Below, one piece after another: positions 17,797-31,715 of a DNA stretch of 64,000 nt. The notes beneath the pieces are model-generated. The model had not been told where the DNA came from, searched no databases, and saw only the letters and a program-made list of their open reading frames with translations. Source of the stretch: Candidatus Uhrbacteria bacterium (lineage in GTDB: Bacteria > Patescibacteriota > Patescibacteriia > JACQRZ01); NCBI GenBank assembly GCA_016206155.1, contig JACQSC010000002.1:143473-207472 (forward strand), read 5' to 3'. The stretch's first letter is position 1. Every line of letters starts with the position of its first letter. Both the position numbers and the translations under genes were made by a program.

Positions 17797-17986
17797 CACC
17801 GTTTTTACACATTAACGAAGCGGAGAACTAATTCATATCATACACAGAGTTTCTGGGACATAACCGCATATTTTATTTTATCGCGCAAGAGATCTTATGA
17901 AGATCCGTATTTATATTTTCATTCCCATTTTTTTCCTGATTATAGTAAATAGTGTAGAGGCAACAATCTGTATTAACGGTGATTGT
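17797..17986 (+). repeat. 190-bp direct repeat, copy 2
   Basis: See 9649..9838. Here it spans the terminator-proximal spacer, the RBS and the first 30 codons of the PA14 gene. Confidence 0.9.
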
Positions 17987-20599
17987 CTTGATCAGCAACA
18001 ACTTCATGAGTTTGACAAGATTCAGAATTATTTAGATTCTTCCGCTATCAATCGTTATAGCCAAAATGGAGAACGATTTATAAGGTGGCCGAAGGGAAGT
18101 TACAGAGAGACCGGAAAGAGCGCTCTTTGCATAAATGGGAATTGTATTACCGAGTGGCCACCTCGTTTGAAAAATTTCGAATTAACTCTCGAAGGCGAGG
18201 ATTCAATGCAACGATATGTGGGCAGGTATTTTGTATTCGGACGAGTAGCAGCTCAGGATTATTATCGAGCTGGAGTTGTTTTGAAATACAATAACCAGTA
18301 CAAGCGATGGCTTGATCCTTCAACCGCTTCCCCGCCAGAAATTATTTATACAACGCCAGCATTTTCAGATACGGGGTATTCATTTGAGACATATTTAGGG
18401 CAATCCGTGGTTGGAAAAAGAAACTTTAATTATTTAAAATCGTCAAGGTATACCGATTTGAGCAATTTTGCTTGTAACAAGGTATCTACAAAGACAGAAT
18501 ATATTTACAATGATAAAGCACGATATATAAAATTTGAGGGCGGCAGAGACGAAGCAAGCTATCGCGGTTCGCTCACCTGTAAAATTCGTCACAAAAGTCC
18601 TATTGGCCTAGAGGCTGTTTATCCATTTGCTGTTGGAAAATTTGAATTGCCAGCTCCGAAAATACTTCAATTCAACGGAATACAGACTTCAGATGGAAAA
18701 CTTCAATTTTTTATCTTTGGTGACGGATACCAATTGACCGCTAAATATGTTGCAGAACTTGATTCGTCGGGACAGGAAAAGAAAGTCATTTTTGATTTGT
18801 TGAATGATCCGTTTGATTTGATGCATATCATTCCTTATCCCGCCGTAGAAACATCATATCGTTTTGTTATAAAAAATTCAGCTGGTGTCGTAACAGCGGA
18901 ATTTTCAAAGAGGCCAAATTATTACGGTCCATGGAGACCGGGCCCTCGATGGGCGACCGACACGCTTGATGATGGGCTAAGGGAGTGGTATAGTTCAGTT
19001 CGCTCATATCAAAGCGTTATAGATGAATTGGCTAATCCACCAAAAGAGAGGAAAGCAAGGGAGGATTCTTCGGAGCGCAACACAAGACAAAAAACAAAAA
19101 TTCAAAGCATTATCAGCAATGTAGGCAGTGGAATCACGTATTACGGACAAAATATTCAAGACATGTCGTATATTCATGATCCAGAGGTTGCTTTCGAGGA
19201 TACGTACACAGATCACCTTGTAGACTCCCTTCCTCCTTGCAGTCCAAAACCAAACCCGCTCTTAATTCAAGAGGCCTACCCAGATCTTTCAGAATTTTAT
19301 CCGGCATATCGCTGTTTTGGTAAAGCAAAACATTGTCTTGACGTGCTGCCGGATTGTCATATATCAGCTGTTAATATAACTGATATATTTAATTTAGATC
19401 AAATACATGCGAAAGATCTTCAAAATGAAGCGTTCATAGTAGAGTCTTGTGGTTTTTGGAGCTCCAATGAAAACAAATTAAAGCATCCTGATCTTGGACG
19501 ACGATGGTTATGGGACCCGAAGCGAAAATATCTTGTAAAAGATAATCCAGTTCAGACGAAAGTACGAGAAGTGCGTTGTGAAGATGGCGTGGTAGATACA
19601 CAGTATACGTATTCAAGCGTTCGCGGACCTAAAGTTAAATACGAATGCGGCCTTATGGATTCACGGTGCAGGGAGGGCGGGGTACGATCGCGCATGGAAA
19701 TCGCGAGAGAGTTAAAATCGCGTTCCATAGAAATTCCGACAGAATCGCCGACTTCGATTAAACAACAAGGAAAGCCAATCAATGCTGAGTCAACAGGCAG
19801 TGAGTGGGTTGATTGCTCGAAAACCCCTGAAGGGTGTAATAAATTTGTTCCAGATGATATAAATGACAATGCTGGCCATCTTTATCATTCTGAAGGGCAT
19901 TCAAATGATGGCATTCGTGATTTTCAGCGTCGCCTGAATGAGGCGCGCAGGGATGGTTCTGGAACCCATCCGATTGATCTTTATAATCCCCAAACACAAA
20001 AACAATATGTTGAATCAAATACAGGAGTTGTCACAAAGGAAGAGGCGGAATCTATCTATGGTAGTACAACTTCTGAGCAGCGTGAAGAAATCATTGACAA
20101 GGCAAAAGAGAAAAGAACCGATAGCGCGTTTAGTGTTGCGTCAATTATAGGCCAGAAGAAATGCAAGACTGACTTTCCATACGGCATCTTCCATGTGTGT
20201 TATTTTTCCGGGATAAACGCACCGATGACTGACGCGTCGGTCATTTTACAACAGCCTGAATGGAACGTGCCAGGTCCCATAAAAACAGGAGTGTTGATGG
20301 ATAATAGCTGGGGGACGGGGGTTATCAGTGCGACCAAGAGAACAGATGACATATCTGGCGTCTGGCGCGGACAATTTTTGTTTGAAAAGGGAACTTATTC
20401 ATTTTTCACGGTTGCAGATGATGGTGTTGAGGTTTGGTTTGACGATACCATGATTATTCAAAATTGGGCTGATCACGGAGAGACAGAAAACCGATCATCC
20501 CCTATTTTTCTTGATGGAGGATTTCATACCATTATGGTTCGATGGTACGAAAAAAACGGAGGGACTCGCTTGTTACTGCGAACCGAATTTATTCAGTAA
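17897..20599 (+). CDS. secreted protein with C-terminal PA14-like domain (900 aa)
   Basis: Signal peptide MKIRIYIFIPIFFLIIVNSVEA followed by a CINGDC / CINGNC motif. The C-terminal segment GVWRGQFLFEKGTYSFFTVADDGVEVWFDDTMIIQNWADHGETENRSSPIFLDGGFHTIMVRWYEKNGGTRLLL matches the PA14 pattern (Y.F...DDG..L.ID......NW.DHG.......L.AG.H.I.V.Y.E.GG.A.L.L). Confidence 0.8.
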   Translation: MKIRIYIFIPIFFLIIVNSVEATICINGDCLDQQQLHEFDKIQNYLDSSAINRYSQNGERFIRWPKGSYRETGKSALCINGNCITEWPPRLKNFELTLEGEDSMQRYVGRYFVFGRVAAQDYYRAGVVLKYNNQYKRWLDPSTASPPEIIYTTPAFSDTGYSFETYLGQSVVGKRNFNYLKSSRYTDLSNFACNKVSTKTEYIYNDKARYIKFEGGRDEASYRGSLTCKIRHKSPIGLEAVYPFAVGKFELPAPKILQFNGIQTSDGKLQFFIFGDGYQLTAKYVAELDSSGQEKKVIFDLLNDPFDLMHIIPYPAVETSYRFVIKNSAGVVTAEFSKRPNYYGPWRPGPRWATDTLDDGLREWYSSVRSYQSVIDELANPPKERKAREDSSERNTRQKTKIQSIISNVGSGITYYGQNIQDMSYIHDPEVAFEDTYTDHLVDSLPPCSPKPNPLLIQEAYPDLSEFYPAYRCFGKAKHCLDVLPDCHISAVNITDIFNLDQIHAKDLQNEAFIVESCGFWSSNENKLKHPDLGRRWLWDPKRKYLVKDNPVQTKVREVRCEDGVVDTQYTYSSVRGPKVKYECGLMDSRCREGGVRSRMEIARELKSRSIEIPTESPTSIKQQGKPINAESTGSEWVDCSKTPEGCNKFVPDDINDNAGHLYHSEGHSNDGIRDFQRRLNEARRDGSGTHPIDLYNPQTQKQYVESNTGVVTKEEAESIYGSTTSEQREEIIDKAKEKRTDSAFSVASIIGQKKCKTDFPYGIFHVCYFSGINAPMTDASVILQQPEWNVPGPIKTGVLMDNSWGTGVISATKRTDDISGVWRGQFLFEKGTYSFFTVADDGVEVWFDDTMIIQNWADHGETENRSSPIFLDGGFHTIMVRWYEKNGGTRLLLRTEFIQ

Positions 20600-20606
20600 G
20601 TCGTCT

Positions 20607-22163
20607 ATGAGCGAAAAAACCAGAAAGTTTGAAAAAGCTGTGGTAGCTCTTGGTGCGGTAGGAGCGCTTCAATTTATCCAGCAGGATGCTCGCGCGGAAA
20701 GCGTTCGCCATCCAGTATCACAACAATTTGAATTAACCTACCAAGAGCGCGAAGGCGGAGAGCCGATCATTATTCGATTCCAATCTCCGAAAAATTTCGG
20801 ACATGAACAAGCTGACGAAACAGTAGACGATCATCCACTAATAAGAAAAATGAAAGAGACTGATGTATTTATTCATCATGTGAACGGATCTATCCTAGAC
20901 AGGAAACAATTTAGAGCATCAATCATTGAACGCATTCCCTCGATAAAGCAGCGATTGCGCATACCGGAACAAAATATTTCCCCACGAGAAAGTATTAAGC
21001 TCGGGGAATATATCATAAAGCAAGACCTTAGGTATGATTATTCTAGTGTTTATCCGTCCGACAGTGACGCGAGGAAGCGATCGGAAATTATTGACATCAC
21101 GCCAGTAGATCAGCTTCGCGGGAAGGGAGTTGTATGTCGCCATGCCGCGGTATATTTTTCGAAAACGCTTGAAGAGATTATTCAATCTGAAGCTCAACAC
21201 TCTCCCCAGGTACGCGGAATGTCAGTTGATGAACTTAGTGGTGATGTTAGACACGCGCTGAATAGTGTTCATAGAATATATCGGAAGGATGGTAAAACAA
21301 TTTTTGAGATAACGCCAATAGATATAACTCCTTCTGAGCGTAAAGAATTTCGGGTTGATACAGAACAGACAGTAACGAAACCCGCGGAAAGGATTTTATC
21401 GTTTCTTCGTCTCCATATTTTTCCTTTCGTGTCGTCAGAGTATATCTTCGCTAGTTTACGTTCTTTTTTTTCCGAAGTCATGCCACATGATGAAAAACTG
21501 TATGCCGTCAATGAGGCATATGAAATCTACCGCGATTCAGTGGAAGCGTTGAAAAAAAACGCACATCATGAGATACCATCACTTTTTTCTTCGGCAGTTC
21601 TATTTTTTGATGATATTCACGCTGGAGCTGTTCAAAAAAAGGACTGGGGTATAGTGTTGGCGGTTCAGGACGTTCTATATCAAATATTTCGTTCGCATGC
21701 AAATGATTTTTCAGATGTCAATAAAGCTCTTGCAATATACAAGGATAGGATTGCGCAAACAGCATCATCGGAGAATATGCGACAGATTCACGCATACTCT
21801 TGCTATGGAGACGCGCTACGAAGGTATGGACGGCCTGGCGAAAGTCTTGATGCTATGGAACGCGCATATATAATTAGCAGAATGGTGGAGTATTGGAAAT
21901 ATCATGTTGAAATAGGTATGGCATACGCTGATTTTTTAGGTGATGCCGGAATGAGAAAAGAAGCCCTTGCAATTTTGCGTGAGCTTTTTGAGTATTTTCA
22001 AAAGCTCCCGAAAAATGGAGCACTTGCAATCGGTTATCATAATGAGATCTATGAGAACGGTGAATATAAGAAGATTGAACCATTTGCGTCGCGCGAGAAT
22101 TTTGAACGATATGTTGAGCACAAAAAGAGGGGGTGGGAATCCAAAGCAAAATCACGAGATTAA
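20607..22163 (+). CDS. transglutaminase-like cysteine peptidase superfamily protein (paralog B), secreted
   Basis: The track ORF 20511 overlaps the upstream gene by 89 nt. The start was moved to M33 (atg 20607), 8 nt after the upstream stop. Signal-like N-terminus KTRKFEKAVVALGAVGALQFIQQDARA. Core G-K-G-V-V-C-R-H-A-A-V-Y-F is a paralog of CRHYAAAF in 7911..9683. Helical C-terminal half. Confidence 0.65.
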   Translation: MSEKTRKFEKAVVALGAVGALQFIQQDARAESVRHPVSQQFELTYQEREGGEPIIIRFQSPKNFGHEQADETVDDHPLIRKMKETDVFIHHVNGSILDRKQFRASIIERIPSIKQRLRIPEQNISPRESIKLGEYIIKQDLRYDYSSVYPSDSDARKRSEIIDITPVDQLRGKGVVCRHAAVYFSKTLEEIIQSEAQHSPQVRGMSVDELSGDVRHALNSVHRIYRKDGKTIFEITPIDITPSERKEFRVDTEQTVTKPAERILSFLRLHIFPFVSSEYIFASLRSFFSEVMPHDEKLYAVNEAYEIYRDSVEALKKNAHHEIPSLFSSAVLFFDDIHAGAVQKKDWGIVLAVQDVLYQIFRSHANDFSDVNKALAIYKDRIAQTASSENMRQIHAYSCYGDALRRYGRPGESLDAMERAYIISRMVEYWKYHVEIGMAYADFLGDAGMRKEALAILRELFEYFQKLPKNGALAIGYHNEIYENGEYKKIEPFASRENFERYVEHKKRGWESKAKSRD

Positions 22164-22188
22164 TTGATTTGGAAAAAAATACGAACAA

Positions 22189-22494
22189 AACCATATACTT
22201 TCCAGCCGCTCTTGTTGCGTTGAAGTAACGTTTTCTGCCCGCCATTTTATAATGAGGCAAAAAAGGTTGACACAATTTTAAACTAAGGTCGAATATTGTA
22301 GTAATACATTCTGATCGCTTAATCAAAGAAGATATTAGTGATACCGAACGGGTGCACGACCTTTCGTTACTCCAAGAGCTCGCTGCGCTTCTTCCGGAAC
22401 GGGCAAGCTGCCGCCTCTCATTAAACAATCTGCGAGAGGATCTTGGAGTTGCGCATAAGTGTAAGGAGGGAAAACGGTGACTGTCACCGTTTTT
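22189..22494 (+). pseudogene. decayed copy of the ATPase gene: promoter/5'UTR + 137-bp internal fragment + stop/terminator
   Basis: Compared directly. 22189..22310 matches 16434..16560, 22312..22459 matches 17149..17289, and 22460..22494 matches 17747..17795 (with one internal repeat unit missing). Confidence 0.85.
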
Positions 22495-22588
22495 TTCCTG
22501 TCACCGTTTTTTTGCCGTTTTTTTGTGAACTAGCGTTGAAAATTCCGATGTGGTATAGTAATAATTGAATCAGGTTGATGCAATTATT

Positions 22589-24280
22589 ATGACACCTATT
22601 GAAAAGAAGGAGAGTGATCTTCTGGTCGAGCATGACATCGTTTCAAAGGACGATATAGCCGCAGCTAAGGAAGAGGGGGAAAAGCAAAACAAGCCCTTCT
22701 TCGACGCACTGCTTGCGCGCACAAAACTCACAGAGGAAAAAATCGGCACAGCGTTGTCCAAAGCGCTTGGAAGTTCGTTCTGCAATCTCAAAGCAGAACA
22801 TGTTGATGAGGGCGTATTCCATCTCATCCCGCAGGTTGTTGCCGCATCGCGCGGTATCATTGCGTTTGGACGTGAAAAAGAGGGAATCTCGGTGGGTATG
22901 ATCGATCCGCGCGATCTTGAAATGCGCCATTTTCTTGAGAAGCGTCTTAGCGAGCCAATCATCCCATGCGTGATTACTCTCGGCGGATTATCAAAAGCGC
23001 TCAAGGAGTACAAGGGCAGTTTAGCCGAGGCATTTAAGAACATCTATCAGCGCATCAAGGATACGACGCTCTCGCGCGAGCAGCGCGACAGCGCGACAGT
23101 GGAGCTTGTTGACGTGATTGTACGCCATGGGTATATAAATCGCGTATCAGATATCCACATTGAGCCATTTTCGCGAAAAATTCTTGTGCGTTTCCGCATC
23201 GATGGCGTCATGCACGATGTGCTTGAGATGCCAAAGGAGCTTTCCGACCTCATTGTCACGCGCATTAAAATTCTCTCGCGCATGCGCACTGACGAGCATC
23301 GCGCGGCGCAGGATGGCAAGTTTCGCTTTACCGCCGATGGCGAGCAAATAGATGTGCGCGTGTCGGTTGTTCCGGTAACATACGGAGAAAATATCGTCAT
23401 GCGTCTTCTTTCGACAAAGGCGCAGCAATTTAACTTGAGCGATCTTGGATTTGCGGAGCAAGATTTGAAAAAAGTTCAACGCGCGATCAAAAAACCCTAC
23501 GGCATGGTGCTTGTCACCGGACCGACCGGAAGCGGCAAAACTACAACCGTCTATGCGTTTCTTAAAATTTTGAACAAGCGTGATGTTCACATCATCACGA
23601 TTGAGGATCCCGTCGAGTACGACATAGAAGGCGTGACACAGATACAGGTTGATCCAAAGACAAATCTGACCTTTGCCAAGGGGCTGCGCGCGATTGTGCG
23701 CCAAGACCCCGACACGATCATGGTGGGCGAGATTCGCGATGCGGAGACGGCTGGTATTGCGGTAAATTCCGCCATGACCGGACACTTGGTCCTCTCAACT
23801 CTGCACGCAAATGATTCCGCAACGACATTGCCGCGCATGCTTGATATGGGTATAGAGCCTTTTCTTTTGGCGACAACAGTCAACATCGTTGTCGCCCAGA
23901 GGCTGGTCAGAAAAATTTGCGAGAAGTGCCGCGAGTCGTATACGATTACAACCGAGGAGAAGCGGCTGCTTGAGGAGGAGCCGATGTTAAAGGAAAAGAT
24001 CATCGCCCGCGGGACAAAAGCAATTGCGCAGGTGCGGTGGTATCACGGGAAGGGCTGTGGAGCGTGCAGCCACACGGGCTACCGAGGACGTCTTGGCATC
24101 TACGAAGTCATGGAGCTGTCTGAAAAAACGCGAGAGGCCATATTGCGCAGGGCTCCAAGCGAGGAGCTGATGGAACTAGCGGTTAAGGAAGGGATGACGA
24201 CGATGCTTGATGATGGGCTTGAGAAGATATTCCTTGGCACAACAACGCTGCACGAAGTAATCCGCGTAACGAGAACGTAA
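22589..24280 (+). CDS. pilB: type IV pilus assembly ATPase PilB (GspE family)
   Basis: Walker A GPTGSGKTT and Asp/His boxes (MVGEIRD). GspE N-terminal domain present. C4 zinc cluster CEKC...CGAC. The track ORF starts at TTG 22565, and the first ATG is at 22589. Confidence 0.9.
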   Translation: MTPIEKKESDLLVEHDIVSKDDIAAAKEEGEKQNKPFFDALLARTKLTEEKIGTALSKALGSSFCNLKAEHVDEGVFHLIPQVVAASRGIIAFGREKEGISVGMIDPRDLEMRHFLEKRLSEPIIPCVITLGGLSKALKEYKGSLAEAFKNIYQRIKDTTLSREQRDSATVELVDVIVRHGYINRVSDIHIEPFSRKILVRFRIDGVMHDVLEMPKELSDLIVTRIKILSRMRTDEHRAAQDGKFRFTADGEQIDVRVSVVPVTYGENIVMRLLSTKAQQFNLSDLGFAEQDLKKVQRAIKKPYGMVLVTGPTGSGKTTTVYAFLKILNKRDVHIITIEDPVEYDIEGVTQIQVDPKTNLTFAKGLRAIVRQDPDTIMVGEIRDAETAGIAVNSAMTGHLVLSTLHANDSATTLPRMLDMGIEPFLLATTVNIVVAQRLVRKICEKCRESYTITTEEKRLLEEEPMLKEKIIARGTKAIAQVRWYHGKGCGACSHTGYRGRLGIYEVMELSEKTREAILRRAPSEELMELAVKEGMTTMLDDGLEKIFLGTTTLHEVIRVTRT

Positions 24281-24339
24281 GACTTTAAACTTTCAATTTT
24301 ATACTTTCGAAAAGAACAAGAACAAAGAAGGAACAGGGA

Positions 24340-25398
24340 ATGCTTACCATGTCGATAGGGGGGGTTTCCTTGGGTCAGCGCGCGCTTCTTGCGCGCCACC
24401 TGGCAATTATGCTGAAAGCGGGGCTTTCTCTCACTGAGTCGCTTGCAATCGCAAAGGATTCGGTCAAGGGGATGCTCAAAAACATTCTTGAAGACGTGTC
24501 GCGTTCAGTGACATCGGGTCGTTCGTTTGCCGACTCGCTTCTTGATCATCAGAGGCATTTTTCAGGGATATTTATCAGTGCGGTCAGAGCCGGAGAGGTG
24601 TCTGGCACACTTGAGATCAATCTGGAGCACTTGGCGGTTCAGCTGGAAAAAGATCGCGCAATTGCCTCAAAAGTAAAGGGCGCCATGCTGTATCCCATTA
24701 TAGTGCTGGTTGCAACATTTGGACTCGGTCTTGTGATTGCGTTCTTTGTACTTCCTCAAATTGTACCGCTGTTTATTGGGATGAAGGCGGAGCTCCCGAT
24801 TACCACGCGCATGCTTATCGCGTTTTCCGCGCTTATTCAAAACCACGGCAAGGCGCTGCTTCTCGGCATTGTGCTGGCAATTATTTTTCTATTCTGGCTT
24901 TCTCGCCAGCCGTTTGTAAAACCACTGACGCACGGGCTCTTGCTGCGCCTTCCAATCATCAGGCCAATTACGCAGGCGACCAATCTCGCGCGCTTCTCAC
25001 GGACGCTTGGTATGCTCCTTAAAAGCGGTCTGCGCATTGATGAGGCTATCGAGATTATGAAGACGACCCTTGGCAATGTGTATTACAAGCGCGCAATGAA
25101 CGAACTGGGCATGCGCGTGACAAAAGGCAGCACGTTGCATGAGATCCTCGAGCATCATCCAAACATTTTCCCGATGGTGCTCGTGCATATGGTTCGAGTT
25201 GGCGAGGAGTCCGGTAAACTCGACGAAACGCTTCTCTATCTTGGCGATTACTATGAATCAGAAGTCGATAACGCGACAAAAGCGCTTTCAACAATCATTG
25301 AGCCGCTGCTCCTTATCTTTATTGGCCTTGCGGTAGGTTTTCTCGCGCTCTCCATCATTACGCCGATCTATAATATCACCGGGGGAGTGAGGAGATAA
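24340..25398 (+). CDS. pilC: type IV pilus inner-membrane platform protein PilC (GspF family)
   Basis: GspF-type repeats and 3 TM segments. Lies directly downstream of pilB. Confidence 0.85.
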   Translation: MLTMSIGGVSLGQRALLARHLAIMLKAGLSLTESLAIAKDSVKGMLKNILEDVSRSVTSGRSFADSLLDHQRHFSGIFISAVRAGEVSGTLEINLEHLAVQLEKDRAIASKVKGAMLYPIIVLVATFGLGLVIAFFVLPQIVPLFIGMKAELPITTRMLIAFSALIQNHGKALLLGIVLAIIFLFWLSRQPFVKPLTHGLLLRLPIIRPITQATNLARFSRTLGMLLKSGLRIDEAIEIMKTTLGNVYYKRAMNELGMRVTKGSTLHEILEHHPNIFPMVLVHMVRVGEESGKLDETLLYLGDYYESEVDNATKALSTIIEPLLLIFIGLAVGFLALSIITPIYNITGGVRR

Positions 25399-25432
25399 CG
25401 TAATCCGTAATCCGTAACTTGTAACTTGTTCT

Positions 25433-25993
25433 ATGGGAAGATTGCGAGGCGTTATAAGACAAGGATTGTTACATATGGTCACATTGCTTGGAGGTCCTTG
25501 TACTAGTTACAGATTACGAGTTACGAGTTACGGTCTCGGGTTTACGCTCATCGAACTCCTCATTGCAATGGCATTGATGATTGTGCTTATCGGCGCGGCG
25601 GCGCCACTCTACAGCAACCTCCAGACAAGCAGCCAGCTCAATGAAAGCGCTGTTACTGTTGCAAGTACGCTTCGACTTGCGCGCACCCGGAGTGTTGCGC
25701 GGCAGAATAATAGCAGCTATGGAGTATATATTGAGGCGAATGCTGGCGGCGCTGATCGTCTCATTCTCTTTGCCGGTATATCCTATGCCGCGAGGAATCC
25801 CGCCTATGACCGGATCACAACATTTGACAGCGCGCTTTCTGTGACGCCCATGCTTTCGGGCGGTGTGACGGAAATCGTATTTTCACGAGCAACAGGCGTC
25901 CCGTCGGCGACAGGAACGATCGGCATTTCGCATGCCACAACGGGAAGCCGTTCTGTTTCAATAAATGCGCTTGGCGCAGTTGATTATGATTGA
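25433..25993 (+). CDS. prepilin-type N-terminal cleavage/methylation domain protein (pseudopilin-like, 186 aa)
   Basis: G|FTLIELLIAMALMIVL class III signal motif. The leader is unusually long; an alternative ATG lies at 25475. The leader-coding region contains 7-mer tandem repeats and one arm of an inverted repeat. Confidence 0.7.
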   Translation: MGRLRGVIRQGLLHMVTLLGGPCTSYRLRVTSYGLGFTLIELLIAMALMIVLIGAAAPLYSNLQTSSQLNESAVTVASTLRLARTRSVARQNNSSYGVYIEANAGGADRLILFAGISYAARNPAYDRITTFDSALSVTPMLSGGVTEIVFSRATGVPSATGTIGISHATTGSRSVSINALGAVDYD

Positions 25994-27746
25994 ACAGCAG
26001 AGGGGACAGACCATTCTAGAAATTGTCATCGCGCTTGCGATTTTTATTTTTATATCAAGCGCGCTTGCTTCACTGATACTCGGCGGGTTGCATGGCGTCG
26101 CGCAGGGGTCACAGCATCTTGAGGCAGACGCGCTTGCGCAGGAGGGAATGGAAGCGCTCCGGTCGATTAAAAACGGCGCGTGGAATGAGTTGTCTCAATC
26201 ACCGGCGGGGGTGCGCGTATCCGGAGGTGAGTGGATTCTCTCCGGAGCAAGCGACAGCATGCCGCCATTTACCCGTACGATTACCCTTGACGCGGTATGC
26301 CGATCACAGGCCGGCGACATTGTTTCGTGTCCCGGTTCATATACAGATCCGCATACGCTGTACGGCGCAAGCGCGGTTACATGGACAACGCTTGAAGGAA
26401 CCCGGAATCAGGTGACTCGCAGCTCCTATCTCACTTCTTGGAATGAGTCGGCGTGGACGCAAACTGATTGGAGCGGTGGTACGGGACAGAGCATATGGTC
26501 GGTAGAGAATCGCTATGATGCGGACGATGGAAATATCGATTCGGCGGTTGCAGGGCAGGTTCAACTCGCGGCATCCGCAATAACTGGAACATGGTCTCTG
26601 CACTCGCAGATACCGGAGGGGGATGATCTTCACGATCTCTGGACCGTGGGCGGAAGCGATATATGGGCTGTCGGAGACGATGGGCTCATCATTCATTGGG
26701 ATGGAACAACGTGGACAACTGTTACATCTCCGCATGGCAGTCGGATCAATGGCATTTTTATGCTCTCTGCCAGTAGTGGGTGGGCTGTTGGCGATGGAGG
26801 AAAGATTATACGGTACGACGGTACATCCTGGACACAGGTAAGCTCGCCCGTTACCGATCACCTTAACAGTATATGGATGGTATCTGAAAGCGATGGCTGG
26901 GCAGTTGGTGAAGCGGGCAAGATTCTCCGCTTTGACGGTACTTCCTGGACGCAATTTACCGATACCGGAGGAAATACCTGGCATGATATTCAAATGATCT
27001 CGGCAGCCGATGGATGGGTTGTTGGAAACCAGGGCCTTATCTACCGCTGGAACGGATCTGCGTGGTCATTGCATACCGATAGCGGCGGTACGGTATGGCG
27101 ATCGCTCTATCTTCTGAGCGCAACGGATGGTTGGGTTGCAGGCGATCAAGGACTTATCTACCGCTGGAATGGTTCTGAGTGGTTGCTTTCAGCCGATACC
27201 GGCGGAACGAACTGGCGCTCTGTGTATCATGCATCATCATCAGACGGCTGGGTGACAGGAACAGGCGGTGAAATCTACCACTGGAATGGCGTTATGTGGA
27301 GCGCATACTCGTCGCCCACAACGGCAGATATTAATGAGGTGCGCATGCTCTCGTCAAGCCTCGGGTGGGCTGTTGCTGATGGCGGGCGACTCTTTCGCTA
27401 CCAAGCAAGCGCCTTTGAGACAAGCGGTGTCGTGACGTCATCCGCCTTCTCGCTTGGCGATGCCTCGCCGGTTACTGTTATCGAGTGGGATGAGGTGGTT
27501 CCCGCATGTACACCGGCGTGTGATGTCCGCCTTCAGATACGCACCGCTCCTGATAGTGGAGGTACACCCGGAGTCTTTGGTCCATGGTACGGAGCGACGG
27601 GTATCGATACGTTTTTTTTAACGCCTACCGGATCGTTGATTCCACAAGAAGCAAACGGCGGATCGTGGGTGCAGTATCGTGCCGTGCTTGACGGCGACGG
27701 CACAGCGACCCCGACGCTAAACGAGGCGCGCGTGTATTATAAATAA
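25986..27746 (+). CDS. prepilin-like protein fused to a multi-bladed beta-propeller domain (about 586 aa)
   Basis: N-terminus MIEQQRGQTILEIVIALAIFIF is a pilin-like hydrophobic helix. It is followed by 8 or more about 40-aa repeats of 'S..DGWAVGd.G.I..wdGt.W' (Ycf48/BNR-like propeller blades). Confidence 0.7.
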   Translation: MIEQQRGQTILEIVIALAIFIFISSALASLILGGLHGVAQGSQHLEADALAQEGMEALRSIKNGAWNELSQSPAGVRVSGGEWILSGASDSMPPFTRTITLDAVCRSQAGDIVSCPGSYTDPHTLYGASAVTWTTLEGTRNQVTRSSYLTSWNESAWTQTDWSGGTGQSIWSVENRYDADDGNIDSAVAGQVQLAASAITGTWSLHSQIPEGDDLHDLWTVGGSDIWAVGDDGLIIHWDGTTWTTVTSPHGSRINGIFMLSASSGWAVGDGGKIIRYDGTSWTQVSSPVTDHLNSIWMVSESDGWAVGEAGKILRFDGTSWTQFTDTGGNTWHDIQMISAADGWVVGNQGLIYRWNGSAWSLHTDSGGTVWRSLYLLSATDGWVAGDQGLIYRWNGSEWLLSADTGGTNWRSVYHASSSDGWVTGTGGEIYHWNGVMWSAYSSPTTADINEVRMLSSSLGWAVADGGRLFRYQASAFETSGVVTSSAFSLGDASPVTVIEWDEVVPACTPACDVRLQIRTAPDSGGTPGVFGPWYGATGIDTFFLTPTGSLIPQEANGGSWVQYRAVLDGDGTATPTLNEARVYYK

Positions 27747-27756
27747 TTTCAAATTT

Positions 27757-28320
27757 ATGATTTTAAATTTCAAATTGAAGAAAAATTTGCAATTTGAAAT
27801 TTGCAATTTGAAATTATGTATTGGGTTTACGTTGGTTGAAATTGTTATTTCTGTCGGAATTATGCTCATCATCGTTGGCAGTCTCGGCGGTTTTGTCGTA
27901 TCTCTGCAGTCGGCGCGACAACATATGGCAAGCGCGCAGGAAGTTGACGGTAATTTTCGCATAGCGCTCGATCTTCTTGGTTCGCGTATCCGCGGCGCGC
28001 GCGGGGTTAATGCCGGCGCATCGATATTTGATACGGATCCGGGGGTATTGTCGCTTGAGATGGCTAATCCCGCGCTCAATCCGACGGTATTTCGTCTTGA
28101 TCAGGATAATGGTATTCTGCAAATGCAAGAGGGAGCGGGAAGCCCCGTGTCAGTGACATCAAACGAAGTACGCGTGTCAGATCTCGTCTTTTCACTGCGC
28201 TCTCCTGCGGGAGAGCCCGAGAATGTTGGTATTGCGCTGACGATTGATTATTATTCGCAAACTGATTCCTATGCCGGCTTTTCCCATTCGCTCACAACCG
28301 CGGTTACCGCTCGAGAGTAG
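27757..28320 (+). CDS. prepilin-type protein (187 aa)
   Basis: G|FTLVEIVISVGIMLII follows a 23-aa leader whose coding sequence contains a perfect 14-nt tandem duplication. Confidence 0.7.
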   Translation: MILNFKLKKNLQFEICNLKLCIGFTLVEIVISVGIMLIIVGSLGGFVVSLQSARQHMASAQEVDGNFRIALDLLGSRIRGARGVNAGASIFDTDPGVLSLEMANPALNPTVFRLDQDNGILQMQEGAGSPVSVTSNEVRVSDLVFSLRSPAGEPENVGIALTIDYYSQTDSYAGFSHSLTTAVTARE

Positions 28321-28324
28321 CGGT

Positions 28325-28693
28325 GTGTCGCTCCTGATTGTTATTGTTATTCTGGGATCGGCTTTGCTTATAATATCCGCCGGCGCGCTTCTGGTTGGGC
28401 TTTCGGAGCGAGAGAGCGGCTTTGTCGCCGGTCTCGGAGGTGAGGCGCGCGCGTTGGCCGACGGATGCATGGATGAAGCATACTTGCGCATGGAGCGTGA
28501 TGCGTCCTGGGGACTCACGAGCGTGGTCCTCTTCACAGCGCCGAATGGTTCATGTAGTATTGAGGTCAGCGATCTTGGCGGGAATACCAGACGTATTGAT
28601 ATTGTCGCAACTCGCGATGCATATACATCACATATCCGTTCAACCTACGTGATTGGCGGCGGGATATCCGAGTGGGAAGAACGCACCGACTAA
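28325..28693 (+). CDS. putative pseudopilin-like protein (about 123 aa, GTG start)
   Basis: The track ORF 28244 overlaps the previous gene. An in-frame GTG at 28325 gives VSLLIVIVILGSALLIISAGALLVG, a pilin-like N-terminal helix. Confidence 0.4.
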   Translation: MSLLIVIVILGSALLIISAGALLVGLSERESGFVAGLGGEARALADGCMDEAYLRMERDASWGLTSVVLFTAPNGSCSIEVSDLGGNTRRIDIVATRDAYTSHIRSTYVIGGGISEWEERTD

Positions 28694-28695
28694 TT

Positions 28696-29757
28696 ATGAT
28701 TTTTACTCGTCGAGCCATTGGTCTAGACATTGCCGACCACAGCATTCAGATTGTCGAGATTGAACAACCCCTTTTTTCGCATACGCCAAAGGTCGTTTCA
28801 AAGGCGCGCCGCTCCCTTGAACGGGGGATTGTTGAAAAAGGCAAGGTTGTTTTAAAAAAGCAGCTTATCGAGGCGTTGTCTGAACTTGCGCGCCAAGCAC
28901 AGCCGAGAGAAATTGCGCCGGGTGACGTTATCTTTGGTGTGCCGGAGCCCCTGGTCTATACCCAAATTCTTATGCTTGAGACGGATCGCGCCACATCGCT
29001 TGATGAACAGATCGAGCGCATCGCCCATGAATCCATTCCGCTTGAATCTGCCGATCTTGTGTATGCGTACGGACTCATATCGCAGATTGAGGGAAAGCGA
29101 GAAGCGCTGCTCTATGGAACAAGCAAGGAAGCGCTTGCCGACTGGGATGATGTGCTTGCGGCGGCGGGCTTTGGCGTTCGCGCGTTTGATCATGAATTGC
29201 TTGCGATTGCGCGCGGCATGTTTGGCAGCACCATTCCATCGCCCGTCTGCATTGTTGATAGCGGAGCGGAACGTACCAAAATTGCCGTTTATTCGCGCCG
29301 CGGACTGCACTATGTGCATTCGATTGATAGGGCCGGTGATTATTTTACAGACGAAATTGCAAAGTCGCTCGATGTGCCAAAGGAAGTTGCCGAGCAGATG
29401 AAGAGAGATGAGGGAATCGTCAACCTGACGCTCCACGCGCTGTTTATAAAACTTTTGGATCCGATTATTGCAGAGATTGTGACGGCATGCGATTTTTTTG
29501 AAAAAACGCATCATCATCCGGTTGCAGAAATTGTGCTTGTCGGCGGATCGGCACAGCTAAAAGGTCTGACCACATATGTTCGGGATGGGGTTGGGCGGCC
29601 GTGCAGGCTTGGCGCTTCATTGCTTCCTTCGCTTCGCACAGAGTCAGACCATGACGCCCTTCACTACATCGAAGCCTTGGGACTCGCGCTCAAGGGTCTT
29701 CGCAAAACAGCGTGGGAGCGGGAACATCCCTCGTTCAAAATGCCGCGCGCGGCATAA
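28696..29757 (+). CDS. pilM: type IV pilus assembly protein PilM (actin-like ATPase fold)
   Basis: IGLDIADHSIQIVE...CIVDSGAERTKIAV...EIVLVGGSAQLKGL matches the PilM/FtsA-like pattern. ATG at 28696 is M9 of the track ORF. Confidence 0.75.
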   Translation: MIFTRRAIGLDIADHSIQIVEIEQPLFSHTPKVVSKARRSLERGIVEKGKVVLKKQLIEALSELARQAQPREIAPGDVIFGVPEPLVYTQILMLETDRATSLDEQIERIAHESIPLESADLVYAYGLISQIEGKREALLYGTSKEALADWDDVLAAAGFGVRAFDHELLAIARGMFGSTIPSPVCIVDSGAERTKIAVYSRRGLHYVHSIDRAGDYFTDEIAKSLDVPKEVAEQMKRDEGIVNLTLHALFIKLLDPIIAEIVTACDFFEKTHHHPVAEIVLVGGSAQLKGLTTYVRDGVGRPCRLGASLLPSLRTESDHDALHYIEALGLALKGLRKTAWEREHPSFKMPRAA

Positions 29758-29771
29758 TTATGGTTATCCAC

Positions 29772-29805
29772 TGCACAAGAAATCAAATATGTGCTATACT
29801 ATAAT
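29772..29805 (+). promoter_or_regulatory. promoter for major pilin gene (TGcTATACT/TATAAT)
   Basis: Sequence gtgctatactataat lies 36 nt upstream of the ATG at 29841. Confidence 0.4.
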
Positions 29806-29840
29806 AAAGTCTTCAGATGAGAAGACATAAGTTTATTATT

Positions 29841-30341
29841 ATGAGACACAATTCCCGACGAGGGTTTACGCTCATTGAACTGCTTATTGTGATTGCTGTG
29901 ATCGCGATTTTGGCGGCTGTTGCATTTGTCGCCCTTGATCCTTTGACACGATTCCGCGATACGCGAGATGCGCGGCGCTGGTCTGATATCTCCGCAATCA
30001 TGACTGCCATCAAGGCAGATCAGGTTGACAGCAGAGGAAACTATTTGACGGCGATTCAGAACATGACCGACGGTCAGGTATATATGGTTGGAACCGGCGC
30101 GGCCGGATGTGACGATCTCAACGCGAGTTGCGCTACGGCAGTTAGCTCAGATGCAAACTGTGTCAATCTTGCAGGATTGGTTACAGCCGGTAAATTGGGC
30201 GCCGTACCAACCAGTCCAAACGGAGCGGCGACATGGACCGCCGCGCGTGGCGGGTATACGTTGCAGCGCGACACGACTGGCATCATCACGGTGCGGGCGT
30301 GCGAACATGAGAATACGACCGAAATTTTCCTCTCACGATAA
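29841..30341 (+). CDS. type IV pilin (major pilin candidate, 166 aa)
   Basis: 8-aa leader MRHNSRRG|FTLIELLIVIAVIAILAAVAF is a canonical prepilin. Its own promoter and a strong terminator suggest high expression. The track ORF begins at the upstream ATG 29817. Confidence 0.8.
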   Translation: MRHNSRRGFTLIELLIVIAVIAILAAVAFVALDPLTRFRDTRDARRWSDISAIMTAIKADQVDSRGNYLTAIQNMTDGQVYMVGTGAAGCDDLNASCATAVSSDANCVNLAGLVTAGKLGAVPTSPNGAATWTAARGGYTLQRDTTGIITVRACEHENTTEIFLSR

Positions 30342-30352
30342 AGAGGTCACTT

Positions 30353-30380
30353 AAAAGCCCCCTCGCGGGGGCTTTTTTTA
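30353..30380 (+). terminator. rho-independent terminator (aaaagcccccTCGCgggggcttttttt)
   Basis: 9-bp GC stem followed by T7. Lies 12 nt after the pilin stop. Confidence 0.85.
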
Positions 30381-30444
30381 TTGCCCTATTTTTACATTTG
30401 TGATACTATATAGATGACAATATTAACTTATAAGCATCCTAACT

Positions 30445-30840
30445 ATGCCGTATTTTGATTTATCGATCTATGGTTCAGAGTGGGCATTGCTCATTATGAG
30501 GATTGCGCTTGCGGCTGTATTTTTGACCCATGGACTCTCAAAGCGCGGGATGTGGAAAGCTGCGCCAAGCGATTCGATGCCGCCATCACAGCTTTGGTTG
30601 ATGCGCATTCTCTCGGTCATTGAGCCTATTGCGGGTATTGGCGTGTTGTTTGGCATCTTTACCGCGTTGTCTGCATATGCGATTGCCATTGTGATGATTG
30701 GAGCAATGTATTACAAGATTGCGGTCTGGAAGAAAAAATTTAGCGAAACAGGCGGATGGGAATTTGACCTCGTGCTTTTTGCCGCCGCGCTTATCATCGC
30801 CGCGTTTGGTCCCGGTGTCTTTTCTCTCGCAATGTACTAA
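30445..30840 (+). CDS. DoxX-family membrane protein
   Basis: 131 aa with 4 TM segments. RIALAAVFLTHGLSK is DoxX-like. Confidence 0.55.
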   Translation: MPYFDLSIYGSEWALLIMRIALAAVFLTHGLSKRGMWKAAPSDSMPPSQLWLMRILSVIEPIAGIGVLFGIFTALSAYAIAIVMIGAMYYKIAVWKKKFSETGGWEFDLVLFAAALIIAAFGPGVFSLAMY

Positions 30841-30848
30841 CGATCAGC

Positions 30849-31715
30849 ATGAAACCCATTATTTTTTACCACGGGCAGTGCCTTGACGGGTTTGCCGGGG
30901 CATGGGCAGCATGGAAAAAATTCGGAAATGCCGCTGAGTATCGGGGGGTTTCTCATGATCTCAACCGCATTCCCACCGGCATCACCGGACGGACAGTTTA
31001 TTTTATCGATTATTGTCTATCGGAGGCGCTGATGCGACGAGCGCTTGCGCGGACGCGACGCTGTATTGTTATTGATCATCACGCAACTCATAGGACCATT
31101 GCGGGCATGGCGGACGAGTCAGTATTTTCGCTGTCGAAATCGGGCTGTGTGCTTGCGTGGAATTATTTTCATCCTAAAAAAAACCCCCCGCAATTGTTGC
31201 TTGCGATCCAGGACTATGATCTTTTTACCCTCAAGCGTAAACATACACTGGAAATCGCGACTGCGCTGACACTTGCGGAGCGAGAATTCGATGCATGGTC
31301 GAACCTTGTTCGCGACTTTGCAGATCCGCTGCTGAGGAAAACATTCGTGTTGCTCGGTTCGCTTCTCATGCGGTATAAGGATGAATGTATTGATCGCATT
31401 CTTGAGAGTGCGCAGCGCGTCGTCTTTCATGGGCATCGCGCCTATGCGGTAAATACGTCCGCGTTCTATTCGGAAGTCGGTACGCGAATGTATCAAACTC
31501 GTCCTGTGCACCTTGGCATTGTTTGGTATTACAGGAATGGGCGCATGAAGGTCTCTCTTCGCTCTGATGGGCGAATTGATTGTGGGGCGCTTGCCATCAG
31601 GTACGGTGGCGGCGGACATGTTGGCGCGGCGGCATTTTGGCTGCCGTTTAAGGGCGAGTTCCCATGGAGGACAATAGGAAATGGTGTCCCCATTTCCCTG
31701 CAAAGTAAATCATAA
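30849..31715 (+). CDS. DHH-family phosphoesterase (NrnA-like)
   Basis: N-terminal HGQCLDGFAGAWAAW and the IDHH motif. Confidence 0.65.
   Translation: MKPIIFYHGQCLDGFAGAWAAWKKFGNAAEYRGVSHDLNRIPTGITGRTVYFIDYCLSEALMRRALARTRRCIVIDHHATHRTIAGMADESVFSLSKSGCVLAWNYFHPKKNPPQLLLAIQDYDLFTLKRKHTLEIATALTLAEREFDAWSNLVRDFADPLLRKTFVLLGSLLMRYKDECIDRILESAQRVVFHGHRAYAVNTSAFYSEVGTRMYQTRPVHLGIVWYYRNGRMKVSLRSDGRIDCGALAIRYGGGGHVGAAAFWLPFKGEFPWRTIGNGVPISLQSKS

What the first reader, a model, noticed from the sequence alone, without database searches (positions are those of the whole stretch)
25986..27746. Pilin-like N-terminus fused to an 8-plus-bladed beta-propeller: candidate pilus-tip adhesin
After the pilin-type hydrophobic helix (GQTILEIVIALAIFIF) there are 8 or more regular about 40-aa blades of the form 'S.sDGWAVGd.G.IlrwdGtsW....s....l..i' (WD-less, Ycf48/BNR-like). 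A pilin-anchored propeller at the tip of a type IV pilus would be a receptor-binding module. I do not recognise an equivalent in described pilus systems.
Basis: partly seen in the sequence, partly recalled or inferred. Interest (0 to 1): 0.6.

Follow-up and report, generated by a model that had tools for sequence, protein, structure and literature searches.

The report
Pilus minor pilin carrying a beta-propeller
This gene in an uncultured ultrasmall (Patescibacteria) bacterium encodes a type IV pilus subunit with a seven-bladed beta-propeller grafted onto it, most likely a tip-displayed binding module; the reading is sound, but comparable "modular pilins", including a propeller-bearing one, are already described.

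Summary
The ORF (25986-27746, 586 aa) is real and identical to a hypothetical protein of a Candidatus Uhrbacteria MAG. It has a class III (prepilin) signal (MIEQQRG|QTILE: Gly-1, Glu+5, about 20 hydrophobic residues). The AlphaFold2 model (pLDDT 89) shows a 55-residue alpha1 helix, a small beta-sheet head, a propeller and a C-terminal beta-sandwich.

The propeller has exactly seven 39-aa blades, not "8 or more". Its closest relatives by sequence profile and by fold are Ycf48 proteins.

The gene is second of four minor-pilin genes in an operon pilB-pilC-H-TARGET-J-K-pilM-major pilin. That order is kept in 48 loci from many Patescibacteria lineages.

Across relatives the N-terminal pilin module and the C-terminal sandwich are constant. 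The middle is swapped: none, one, two or three propellers, or unrelated domains, giving proteins of 171-2414 aa.

The best reading is a tip-located modular minor pilin that presents a ligand or host-binding cargo. Binding itself is inferred, not shown.

It is not unprecedented. Modular pilins are established (S. sanguinis PilB/PilC). The pilin + Ycf48-like architecture is listed once in a 2021 dataset. Saccharibacteria TM7x PilX2 is a seven-bladed-propeller minor pilin needed for host binding. Verdict: a new member of a known kind, of moderate interest.

The parts
25986..26006 (+). Leader peptide MIEQQRG (aa 1-7) of a class III (prepilin) signal, ending in Gly-1
   Evidence: Read from the sequence. 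Gly7 is nearly invariant and the leaders are short and polar or basic in 28 orthologues. The start codon overlaps the stop of the upstream pilin gene.
26007..26177 (+). Alpha1 helix of the mature pilin (aa 8-64): QTILE with Glu+5, then a hydrophobic alpha1N segment
   Evidence: The AF2 model has a helix at 10-64 and at 10-71 in the N-module-only model. E12 (= Glu+5) is invariant. Pfam N_methyl scores 16.1 bits, below the 21.2 cut-off; 18 of 28 family members hit it at E<=0.01.
26178..26465 (+). Pilin head: antiparallel beta-sheet with a conserved Cys pair (C104, C114)
   Evidence: Strands 74-159 in the model. 'VCRxxxGDIxxCP' is conserved. A profile of aa 1-166 finds 330 cluster representatives at E<=1e-30, always at the N-terminus.
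26466..26585 (+). Conserved neck (W.QTDWSGG.GQ..W...Y..DDG.I....GQ.QL) after which the cargo is inserted
   Evidence: W157, Q159 and D161 are invariant. In cargo-less relatives (P0147, P0156, P0180) this segment runs directly into the C-terminal domain.
26586..27410 (+). Seven-bladed Ycf48-like beta-propeller (aa ~201-475). The sequence repeat, in 39-aa register, spans aa 213-485 = nt 26622-27440
   Evidence: Repeat statistics. The model has 7 blades of 4 strands with pLDDT >90. The family profile hits Ycf48 PDB chains at E=5e-18. The top 12 Foldseek PDB hits are all Ycf48 (E 3e-15, TM 0.67-0.74).
27411..27746 (+). C-terminal beta-sandwich (aa 476-586) with a conserved CxxxC, plus the stop codon
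   Evidence: Strands 480-585 in the model. S485, S486, W501, P506, Y564, T575, P576 and Y585 are invariant. No Pfam or PDB sequence match. It ends 106 of the 150 best family representatives whatever the cargo.
22565..25398 (+). pilB (extension ATPase, 22565-24280) and pilC (platform protein, 24340-25398)
   Evidence: Pfam T2SSE 5.8e-128 and T2SSF 1.1e-54.
25433..25993 (+). GspH/FimU-like minor pilin (G|FTLIE)
   Evidence: TIGR01708 gspH 2.7e-7; Pfam GspH 0.012 over aa 75-181. G|F...E in 38 of 38 orthologues where a Gly was located.
27757..28320 (+). Third minor pilin (J position; G|FTLVE, Glu+5 present)
   Evidence: N_methyl 0.0031; weak ComGE, ComGF and PilV hits. Glu+5 in 27 of 27 orthologues.
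28271..28693 (+). Fourth minor pilin (K position; SSG|VSLLI, no Glu+5), the presumed tip cap
   Evidence: Sequence. A hydrophobic residue sits at +5 in 31 of 31 orthologues. No Pfam or NCBIfam hit. The start codon is uncertain (TTG 28244 or ATG 28271).
28672..30341 (+). pilM (28672-29757) and the major pilin (29817-30341; RRG|FTLIE)
   Evidence: PilM_2 7e-25; N_methyl 6e-10 and TIGR02532 1.8e-9.
30353..30376 (+). Terminator-like hairpin that closes the operon
   Evidence: 10-bp stem with 6 G-C pairs followed by a T run; it is the strongest site in 22000-30900.

Best explanation
The gene encodes a modular minor type IV pilin of a Patescibacteria (Candidatus Uhrbacteria) type IV pilus.

Proposed mechanism:
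1. A prepilin peptidase encoded elsewhere in the genome cuts after Gly7. [inferred]
2. The mature protein (N-terminal Gln, Glu at +5) inserts its hydrophobic alpha1 helix into the pilus core. [inferred]
3. Together with the three neighbouring minor pilins it forms the priming complex on the PilC/PilM platform. These are a GspH-like pilin, a second Glu5-bearing pilin, and a Glu5-less cap pilin. PilB powers assembly. Because pili grow from tip to base, this complex ends up at the tip. [inferred from the HIJK and S. sanguinis PilABC models]
4. The bulky cargo, about 45 kDa, is a seven-bladed Ycf48-like propeller inserted in front of a conserved beta-sandwich. It can only be accommodated at or near the tip. 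There it acts as the ligand-binding module, most likely for a surface glycan or protein of the host or partner cell that these episymbionts attach to. [inferred]

Shown here: the domain architecture, the class III motif, the operon context and its conservation, and the cargo swapping in the family.

Inferred, not shown: cleavage, incorporation into the pilus, tip location, binding and the ligand.
For: Class III motif.
- Short leader, Gly-1, Glu+5 and a hydrophobic stretch are present; E12 is invariant and G7 nearly invariant in 28 orthologues of 31-74% identity.
- Relatives carry either G|Q...E (49 proteins) or the canonical G|F..(L/V)E (7).
- G|Q...E is a documented class III variant (PMC3875500).

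Structure.
- AF2 model with pLDDT 89.2: helix 10-64, beta-sheet head, 7 blades of 4 strands, beta-sandwich.
- The propeller is Ycf48-like by profile (E 5e-18) and by fold (Foldseek E 3e-15, TM 0.70-0.74).

Operon.
- pilB-pilC-H-target-J-K-pilM-pilA with overlapping genes and a terminal hairpin.
- The same order is seen in L001 and L002 and in 46 further species genomes.
- The neighbours behave like H, J and K pilins: E5 in 38/38 and 27/27, and absent in 31/31 of the K-position pilin.

Cargo is exchangeable on a fixed scaffold.
- Forms with 0, 7, about 14 and about 21 blades, or with unrelated inserts. This is the pattern expected of a specificity-determining module.
- Conserved Cys pairs in the head and the C-terminal domain fit an extracellular protein.

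Precedents.
- Modular pilins PilB and PilC are tip adhesins (PMC8179133, PMC9934059).
- TM7x PilX2 is a seven-bladed-propeller minor pilin; its deletion lowers host binding from 10.6% to 4.6% (PMC11623550).
Against: - No experiment or direct computation shows cleavage, pilus incorporation or binding.
- The target scores below Pfam's N_methyl cut-off (16.1 against 21.2 bits).
- The +1 residue is Gln, not Phe or Met.
- Foldseek of the N-terminal module against the PDB gave no significant pilin match (best E 0.2; a Thermus competence pilin at E about 0.6).
- No prepilin peptidase or PilT lies in the 64-kb window.
- Ycf48 itself is a photosystem II assembly factor, so homology says nothing about the ligand.
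- Blade loops show no clearly hypervariable face among orthologues.
- Model pTM is 0.63, so the relative placement of the domains is uncertain.
Confidence: 0.65

Rival explanations
1. Structural priming or anti-retraction cap. The protein is a genuine tip minor pilin, but the propeller has no specific ligand. It acts as a bulky plug that stabilises the priming complex or prevents full retraction, as proposed for part of PilY1's role.
For: - The gene is a fixed member of the four-gene minor-pilin set in every locus, as expected of a core assembly factor.
- Cargo-less forms of about 300 aa exist, so the scaffold has a function without any cargo.
- No PilT gene is in the window.
- TM7x delta-pilX2 changes filament number and length (PMC11623550).
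Against: - A purely steric role does not explain why the cargo is swapped between 1-3 propellers and many unrelated domains, in proteins up to 2414 aa, while the scaffold stays constant.
- TM7x delta-pilX2 still makes filaments but binds hosts poorly.
Confidence: 0.15
2. DNA-uptake (competence) pilus. The pilus is Com-like, and the propeller/sandwich captures extracellular DNA or docks the pilus during DNA uptake.
For: - Patescibacteria are reduced monoderm-like cells for which pilus-mediated DNA uptake is often proposed (own knowledge; in PMC11623550 a DNA-uptake role is only hinted at for the other, essential T4P-1 pilus).
- The N-terminal helix gives its best, though very weak, NCBIfam hit to ComGE (E 0.02).
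- The H-I-J-K gene order resembles comGD-GG.
Against: - No DNA-binding family or motif was detected.
- Ycf48-type propellers are not known DNA binders.
- In TM7x the pilin mutants tested, including pilX2, kept wild-type competence.
Confidence: 0.1
3. Not assembled into a pilus. The N-terminus acts as an uncleaved signal anchor, and the protein is a membrane-tethered surface receptor that merely shares the operon.
For: - The +1 Gln is atypical.
- The target itself scores below the N_methyl cut-off.
- SignalP did not call PilD signals for the analogous TM7x PilX1 and PilX2.
- No structural match to solved pilins was found.
Against: - Gly-1 and Glu+5 are conserved across hundreds of relatives. 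A charged Glu inside a plain membrane anchor would not be kept.
- Some relatives have the canonical GFSLVE.
- The gene has a fixed position inside the minor-pilin block.
- The model has the pilin 'lollipop' shape of a long helix followed by a beta-sheet.
Confidence: 0.07
4. Enzymatic cargo. The propeller is a glycosidase or other enzyme delivered on the pilus to attack the host envelope.
For: - Some modular pilins carry predicted peptidase modules (PMC8179133).
- BNR-type propellers include sialidases (own knowledge).
Against: - There is no match to any enzyme family.
- The nearest relatives, the Ycf48 proteins, are non-enzymatic scaffolds.
- The residues conserved in every blade are structural (G, W and hydrophobic core).
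Confidence: 0.03

Closest known systems
Nanosynbacter lyticus TM7x PilX2 (Saccharibacteria T4P-2 minor pilin; PMC11623550)
   Same: - A Patescibacteria type IV pilus minor pilin.
- N-terminal hydrophobic helix plus pilin head, with a seven-bladed beta-propeller as the extra domain.
- Non-canonical signal peptide.
- The largest pilin of its locus.
- Proposed tip adhesin, with genetic support for a role in host binding.
   Different: - The PilX2 propeller is described as RCC1-repeat and PLL-lectin-like. The one here is Ycf48-like by sequence and fold, so the two are probably independent grafts.
- Here the propeller is inserted in front of a conserved C-terminal beta-sandwich.
Modular type IV pilins: Streptococcus sanguinis PilB (vWA) and PilC (lectin) (PMC8179133, PMC9934059)
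   Same: - A pilin module with a class III signal carrying a grafted domain that is not specific to pili.
- Part of a small set of minor pilins that prime assembly and sit at the tip, under a Glu5-less subunit.
- The exact architecture IPR012902-IPR028203 (Ycf48/Hcf136-like) is listed once in Dataset S1 of PMC8179133.
   Different: - The cargo fold differs: propeller plus sandwich, against vWA or lectin.
- The host phylum differs.
- There are no structural or binding data for this family.
- The cargo is an insertion between conserved N- and C-terminal parts, not simply a C-terminal addition.
PilY1 / PilC tip adhesin of diderm type IVa pili
   Same: A seven-bladed beta-propeller associated with the minor-pilin tip complex, encoded within the minor-pilin operon, with variable adhesive modules.
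   Different: - PilY1 is not a pilin. It has a Sec signal and docks onto the minor pilins, and its propeller is the carrier rather than the cargo.
- No member of this family hits the PilY1/PilC propeller Pfam family.
- No PilY1 structure appears among the 50 listed Foldseek PDB matches.
Ycf48 / HCF136 (photosystem II assembly factor; PDB 2xbg, 5ojp, 5oj5, 8am5_S)
   Same: The closest solved relatives of the propeller. Seven blades; profile E 5e-18 over aa 233-470; Foldseek E 3e-15, TM 0.70-0.74.
   Different: - Only 16-17% identity.
- Ycf48 is a soluble or lipoprotein factor of oxygenic phototrophs that binds the D1 protein.
- The biological context here is unrelated: a non-photosynthetic Patescibacterium and a pilus operon.
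GspH-I-J-K / FimU-PilV-PilW-PilX / ComGD-GG minor-pilin priming complexes
   Same: - Four consecutive pilin genes.
- The first is GspH-like.
- The last lacks Glu5, like GspK and PilX.
- The set lies next to the assembly genes.
   Different: - The target occupies the second ('I') position but is far larger than any GspI, PilV or ComGE.
- Its head could not be assigned to the I or J fold.

Membership tests
Type IV pilin / class III signal peptide proteins | Short polar or basic leader ending in Gly (-1) | tested here: met
   MIEQQRG|. G7 is at least 90% conserved in 28 orthologues.
Type IV pilin / class III signal peptide proteins | Glu at +5 followed by about 20 hydrophobic residues | tested here: met
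   QTILE-IVIALAIFIFISSALASLILGG. E12 is invariant. The motif is present in about 66 of 120 homologues and 133 of 150 family representatives.
Type IV pilin / class III signal peptide proteins | Match to Pfam PF07963 (N_methyl) or TIGR02532 above the curated cut-off | tested here: not met
   The target scores 16.1 bits against a cut-off of 21.2, with no TIGR02532 hit. 18 of 28 orthologues hit PF07963 at E<=0.01. The +1 Gln is atypical for bacteria but documented elsewhere (PMC3875500).
Type IV pilin / class III signal peptide proteins | Lollipop fold: an extended alpha1 helix of about 50 residues packed on an antiparallel beta-sheet | tested here: inconclusive
Type IV pilin / class III signal peptide proteins | Processing by a prepilin peptidase and incorporation into a filament | not testable with these tools
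   No Peptidase_A24 gene among the window ORFs scanned. This needs the whole genome and an experiment.
Type IV pilin / class III signal peptide proteins | Encoded with the pilus assembly genes | tested here: met
   Lies between pilC and pilM with three other pilin genes. The order is conserved in 48 loci.
Modular pilin (as defined in PMC8179133) | N-terminal pilin module plus at least one domain not specific to pilus biology | tested here: met
   Ycf48-like propeller plus a beta-sandwich. The same InterPro architecture is listed in that paper's Dataset S1.
Ycf48-like beta-propeller (Pfam PF14870 PSII_BNR) | Seven-bladed propeller homologous to Ycf48 | tested here: met
   Seven blades. The family profile hits Ycf48 chains at E 5e-18. 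The top Foldseek hits are all Ycf48.
Ycf48-like beta-propeller (Pfam PF14870 PSII_BNR) | Pfam PF14870 hit for this protein itself | tested here: not met
   No PF14870 hit at E<=0.1 for the target. 5 of 28 orthologues hit it, best 7.3e-12, and many homologues carry it as a precomputed domain. The target is a divergent member of the superfamily, not a functional Ycf48.
BNR / Asp-box repeat | S-x-D-x-G-x-T-W motif in the blade hairpins | tested here: not met
   Blades 3-5 carry TDTGGNTW, TDSGGTVW and ADTGGTNW, which have one residue more than the Asp-box. The other blades lack the motif (read output).
PilY1 / PilC tip adhesin | PilY1/PilC beta-propeller domain in a non-pilin protein | tested here: not met
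   No hit to that Pfam family in the target or in 28 orthologues. The protein has a pilin N-terminus.
GspI / PilV / ComGE ('I' minor pilin) | Small pilin that nucleates the I-J-K complex; second gene of the H-I-J-K block | tested here: inconclusive
   The position in the operon fits. The only sequence signal is a helix-only ComGE hit at E 0.02. No structural match was found.

The most novel reading that the evidence does not exclude
This protein may be one allele of a Patescibacteria-wide cargo-swapping tip pilin. A conserved scaffold, made of a G|Q...E pilin module and a C-terminal beta-sandwich, accepts exchangeable inserts: none, one, two or three Ycf48-like propellers, or unrelated domains, in proteins up to about 2400 aa. 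The insert would determine which host cell or substrate an episymbiont's pilus recognises, much as exchangeable receptor-binding modules set phage host range. If so, host specificity of uncultured Patescibacteria could be read, and tested, from one identifiable gene. A smaller side issue: the conserved +1 Gln could mean the mature N-terminus is not N-methyl-Phe, as in archaeal EppA-type pilins.
Probability: 0.3. Interest if true: 0.6.

Novelty: new member of a known kind. Interest (0 to 1): 0.4.

Why it matters
Patescibacteria are a large share of bacterial diversity, and every cultivated member lives attached to another microbe. How they recognise their partners is largely unknown.

The one genetically tractable case, TM7x, points to a propeller-bearing minor pilin. 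This locus shows that environmental lineages (Uhrbacteria and many Paceibacteria-type groups) have a comparable protein: a minor pilin in a fixed operon position whose middle part is freely exchanged.

That gives a concrete, easily located candidate gene for host-range prediction, for expressing ectodomains and screening them on glycan or protein arrays, and for comparing strains.

For pilus biology it adds a Ycf48-type propeller, and an insertion-type architecture, to the list of modular pilins. It does not change the concept.

Tried and rejected
- Eighth blade: searched with a profile of the seven blades. The best extra window scores 2.9 against 68-108 for the real blades. Rejected.
- DNA-level tandem repeat in the gene: none found, so the blades are old duplications.
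- WD40, Kelch, RCC1, sortilin/Vps10 and PilY1 families in Pfam: no hits. Only a faint Rax2 hit (E 0.099) for the target.
- Identity of the C-terminal sandwich. There was no Pfam hit. The only PDB hit was a weak WSxWS-like match to cytokine-receptor FN3 domains (E 0.014), treated as not significant.
- Prepilin peptidase or PilT in the window: none among the ORFs of at least 150 aa that were scanned.
- A hypervariable propeller face among orthologues: per-position entropy showed conserved structural positions but no clear variable face.
- TM7x PilX2 sequence or length from the paper's supplements: not held. Homology between the two pilin modules is therefore untested.
Full report
**1. What is at the coordinates**

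The + strand carries one long ORF ending at 27746. The ATG at 25986 overlaps the stop codon (25991-25993) of the upstream pilin gene. It gives a 586-aa product with a 7-residue leader, so it is the likelier start. An in-frame ATG at 25965 would add 7 residues. The 586-aa protein is 100% identical to NCBI 'hypothetical protein HY623_01420 [Candidatus Uhrbacteria bacterium]', on a 244,926-bp contig. The rest of the window is ordinary chromosome: tRNA synthetases, DnaE, GyrB, NusG, L1, GatB, PBP2 and FtsW/RodA.

**2. The repeat**

The blade-like repeat is real and strictly periodic.
- Seven copies lie in 39-aa register from aa 213 to 485, with mean pairwise identity 36%.
- BLOSUM62 autocorrelation is 598 at lag 39 and 389 at lag 78. 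The maximum over 500 shuffles was -47.
- A profile of the seven blades finds no further copy. The next best window scores 2.9 against 68-108.
- There is no repeat at DNA level.

**3. Structure**

AlphaFold2 was run with a 28-sequence family alignment (A1). It gave mean pLDDT 89.2 and pTM 0.63. The model contains:
- a helix at 10-64;
- a beta-sheet at 74-159;
- a partly ordered neck at 160-200;
- seven four-stranded blades at about 201-475, most blocks with pLDDT above 90;
- a beta-sandwich at 480-585.

The family profile hits Ycf48 chains in the PDB (5ojp 5e-18, 2xbg, 8am5_S) over aa 233-470. The 12 best Foldseek PDB matches are all Ycf48 (E 3e-15 to 1e-12, TM 0.67-0.74), ahead of generic WD40 propellers. 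Pfam does not report PF14870 for the target itself, but it does for 5 of 28 orthologues. The 'Ycf48-like, WD-less' description holds. A strict BNR/Asp-box does not: the DTGGxxW loops have one residue too many. The C-terminal sandwich matches no Pfam family and no solved structure by sequence.

**4. Is the N-terminus a prepilin signal?**

In favour:
- The sequence is MIEQQRG|QTILEIVIALAIFIFISSALASLILGG.
- In A1, Glu+5 is invariant and Gly-1 nearly so. Leaders are short and polar or basic.
- Among the 120 best homologues, about 66 have G-x4-E followed by a hydrophobic run at the N-terminus. The +1 residue is Gln in 49 and Phe in 7, for example GFSLVE.
- Among the 150 best representatives of the N-module family, Gln is at +1 in 82 and Phe in 20.

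Against:
- The target is below Pfam's N_methyl cut-off (16.1 against 21.2 bits).
- Foldseek of the N-module model (pLDDT 76.8) found no significant pilin in the PDB.
- No prepilin peptidase is in the window.

On balance the pilin assignment is strong, because of motif conservation, the helix-plus-sheet model and the gene context. Processing itself remains an inference.

**5. Context**

The gene lies in a compact operon:
- pilB (T2SSE 6e-128) and pilC (T2SSF 1e-54);
- a GspH-like pilin (G|FTLIE);
- the target;
- a pilin with G|FTLVE;
- a small pilin with G|VSLLI, which has no Glu5;
- pilM (7e-25);
- the major pilin (RRG|FTLIE, N_methyl 6e-10).

Genes overlap or abut, and a strong hairpin plus T-run follows the major pilin gene. 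The same order occurs around orthologues of 62% and 43% identity. It also occurs in 46 species-representative genomes of Ryan-, Vogel-, Magasanik-, Falkow-, Wildermuth-, Campbell- and Uhrbacteria and of Paceibacterota.

Across these loci the first pilin has G|F...E in 38/38, the third has Glu5 in 27/27, and the fourth lacks Glu5 in 31/31. That is the signature of an H-I-J-K-type priming set with a Glu5-less cap, as summarised in PMC9934059. The target occupies the second position.

**6. The family is a scaffold with exchangeable cargo**

- Relatives of about 1000 aa have two propellers, each followed by a sandwich (P0010, P0016, P0025).
- Others (P0066, P0095) keep the N-module and the C-terminal sandwich but have unrelated inserts.
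- In the 48 loci, the ORF that starts with the N-module has 5-7 detected blades in 13 loci, 12-14 in 4, and 20-21 in 3. The remaining loci have no detected blades or run off the contig end (three of those show 2 blades). Complete ORFs range from about 160 to 1427 aa, and one ORF that runs off its contig already exceeds 2197 aa.
- A profile of the N-module alone finds 330 cluster representatives at E<=1e-30, and 3348 at E<=1e-10, always at the protein N-terminus. The 150 best are 171-2414 aa long. Of these, 37 have Ycf48-like blades and 106 end in the conserved sandwich.
- Cargo-less forms of about 300-320 aa (P0147, P0156, P0180) run from the neck ('...GQ.QL...') straight into '(Y/F)E..G...SSAF...'. 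The propeller of the target is therefore an insertion at that junction.

**7. Most likely function**

The protein is a tip-located modular minor pilin that presents a binding module. The logic combines four things:
- the architecture;
- membership of the priming set, together with the fact that pili grow tip-first, so the priming set becomes the tip (established model; PMC9934059);
- the steric argument that a 45-kDa appendage fits only at the tip (PMC8179133);
- the cargo swapping, which is typical of specificity determinants.

Direct precedent comes from TM7x PilX2, a seven-bladed-propeller minor pilin. Its deletion lowers host binding from 10.6% to 4.6% without abolishing filaments (PMC11623550).

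The ligand is unknown. Homology to Ycf48 gives no clue to it, and no hypervariable face was evident. Rivals considered are a purely structural cap, a DNA-uptake role, an uncleaved membrane anchor, and an enzymatic cargo. They are listed with their evidence in the rival explanations.

**8. Novelty**

- The very combination IPR012902-IPR028203 is listed once in that paper's dataset.
- A propeller-bearing Patescibacteria pilin has been studied genetically.

What this analysis adds is the size and distribution of this particular family, its fixed operon position, the insertion-type architecture with a conserved C-terminal sandwich, the variants with multiple propellers or no cargo, and the conserved G|Q...E signal. 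I rate it a new member of a known kind, with moderate interest (0.4).

Noticed in passing
window 536-22163: The upstream third of the window has lower G+C (0.38-0.44, against about 0.50 downstream). It encodes very large same-strand ORFs (1595, 672, 594, 1443, 900 and 550 aa) with almost no Pfam matches. The 900-aa one (17897-20599) has an N-terminal signal-like segment and a C-terminal PA14 domain (9e-12). Two others have weak TPR hits. This could be a block of surface or adhesion proteins, or an acquired island, next to the pilus operon.
   Followed up: partly
window 28244-28693 (likely start 28271): The fourth minor pilin has no Pfam or NCBIfam hit and lacks Glu+5 (SSG|VSLLI). The lack of Glu5 is conserved in 31 of 31 orthologous loci, as in GspK/PilX-type cap pilins.
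   Followed up: yes
window 26004-26021; family-wide: The +1 residue after the predicted cleavage site is Gln in most of this pilin family (49 of about 66 and 82 of 150). The neighbouring H, J and major pilins use the canonical Phe. The same Gly/Gln/Glu pattern is known from archaeal EppA substrates (PMC3875500). This might explain why SignalP missed the PilD signals of TM7x PilX1 and PilX2.
   Followed up: partly
L015, L016, L017 (about 1277-1427 aa); L022; P0179, P0168, P0133: Orthologous scaffold pilins exist with about 20-21 blades (three propellers). Others reach 2000-2400 aa with non-propeller cargo. Some loci (L035, L039, L040) have the N-module ORF ending at about 195 aa with the C-terminal sandwich encoded kilobases downstream. 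These may be split genes, frameshifts or assembly errors.
   Followed up: partly
L015, L017, L019, L022, L025, L027, L029-L031, L033, L035, L036 (record titles): Several TPA metagenome bins titled 'uncultured Gammaproteobacteria bacterium', and others titled 'Candidatus Saccharibacteria', carry this typically Patescibacteria pilus operon. Those record titles may be placeholder or wrong taxonomy.
   Followed up: no
window 30353-30376: A strong intrinsic-terminator-like hairpin (10-bp stem, T-run) lies 12 nt after the major pilin gene and marks the operon end. The best promoter-like site (10 of 12 matches) lies at 22536-22565, just upstream of pilB.
   Followed up: partly
P0093, P0097, P0099, P0120: The same 39-aa blade type (..D.WAVG..G.I.HW.G..W..) occurs in long arrays fused to Ser/Thr protein kinase domains. 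One of these, P0097, is annotated as Myxococcales. It also occurs in many 'PSII stability/assembly factor-like' proteins of non-phototrophs. This propeller type is therefore a widely reused extracellular module.
   Followed up: no
window 16570-17751: An AAA_14 + DUF4143 ATPase gene sits inside the low-G+C region, between the giant ORFs.
   Followed up: no
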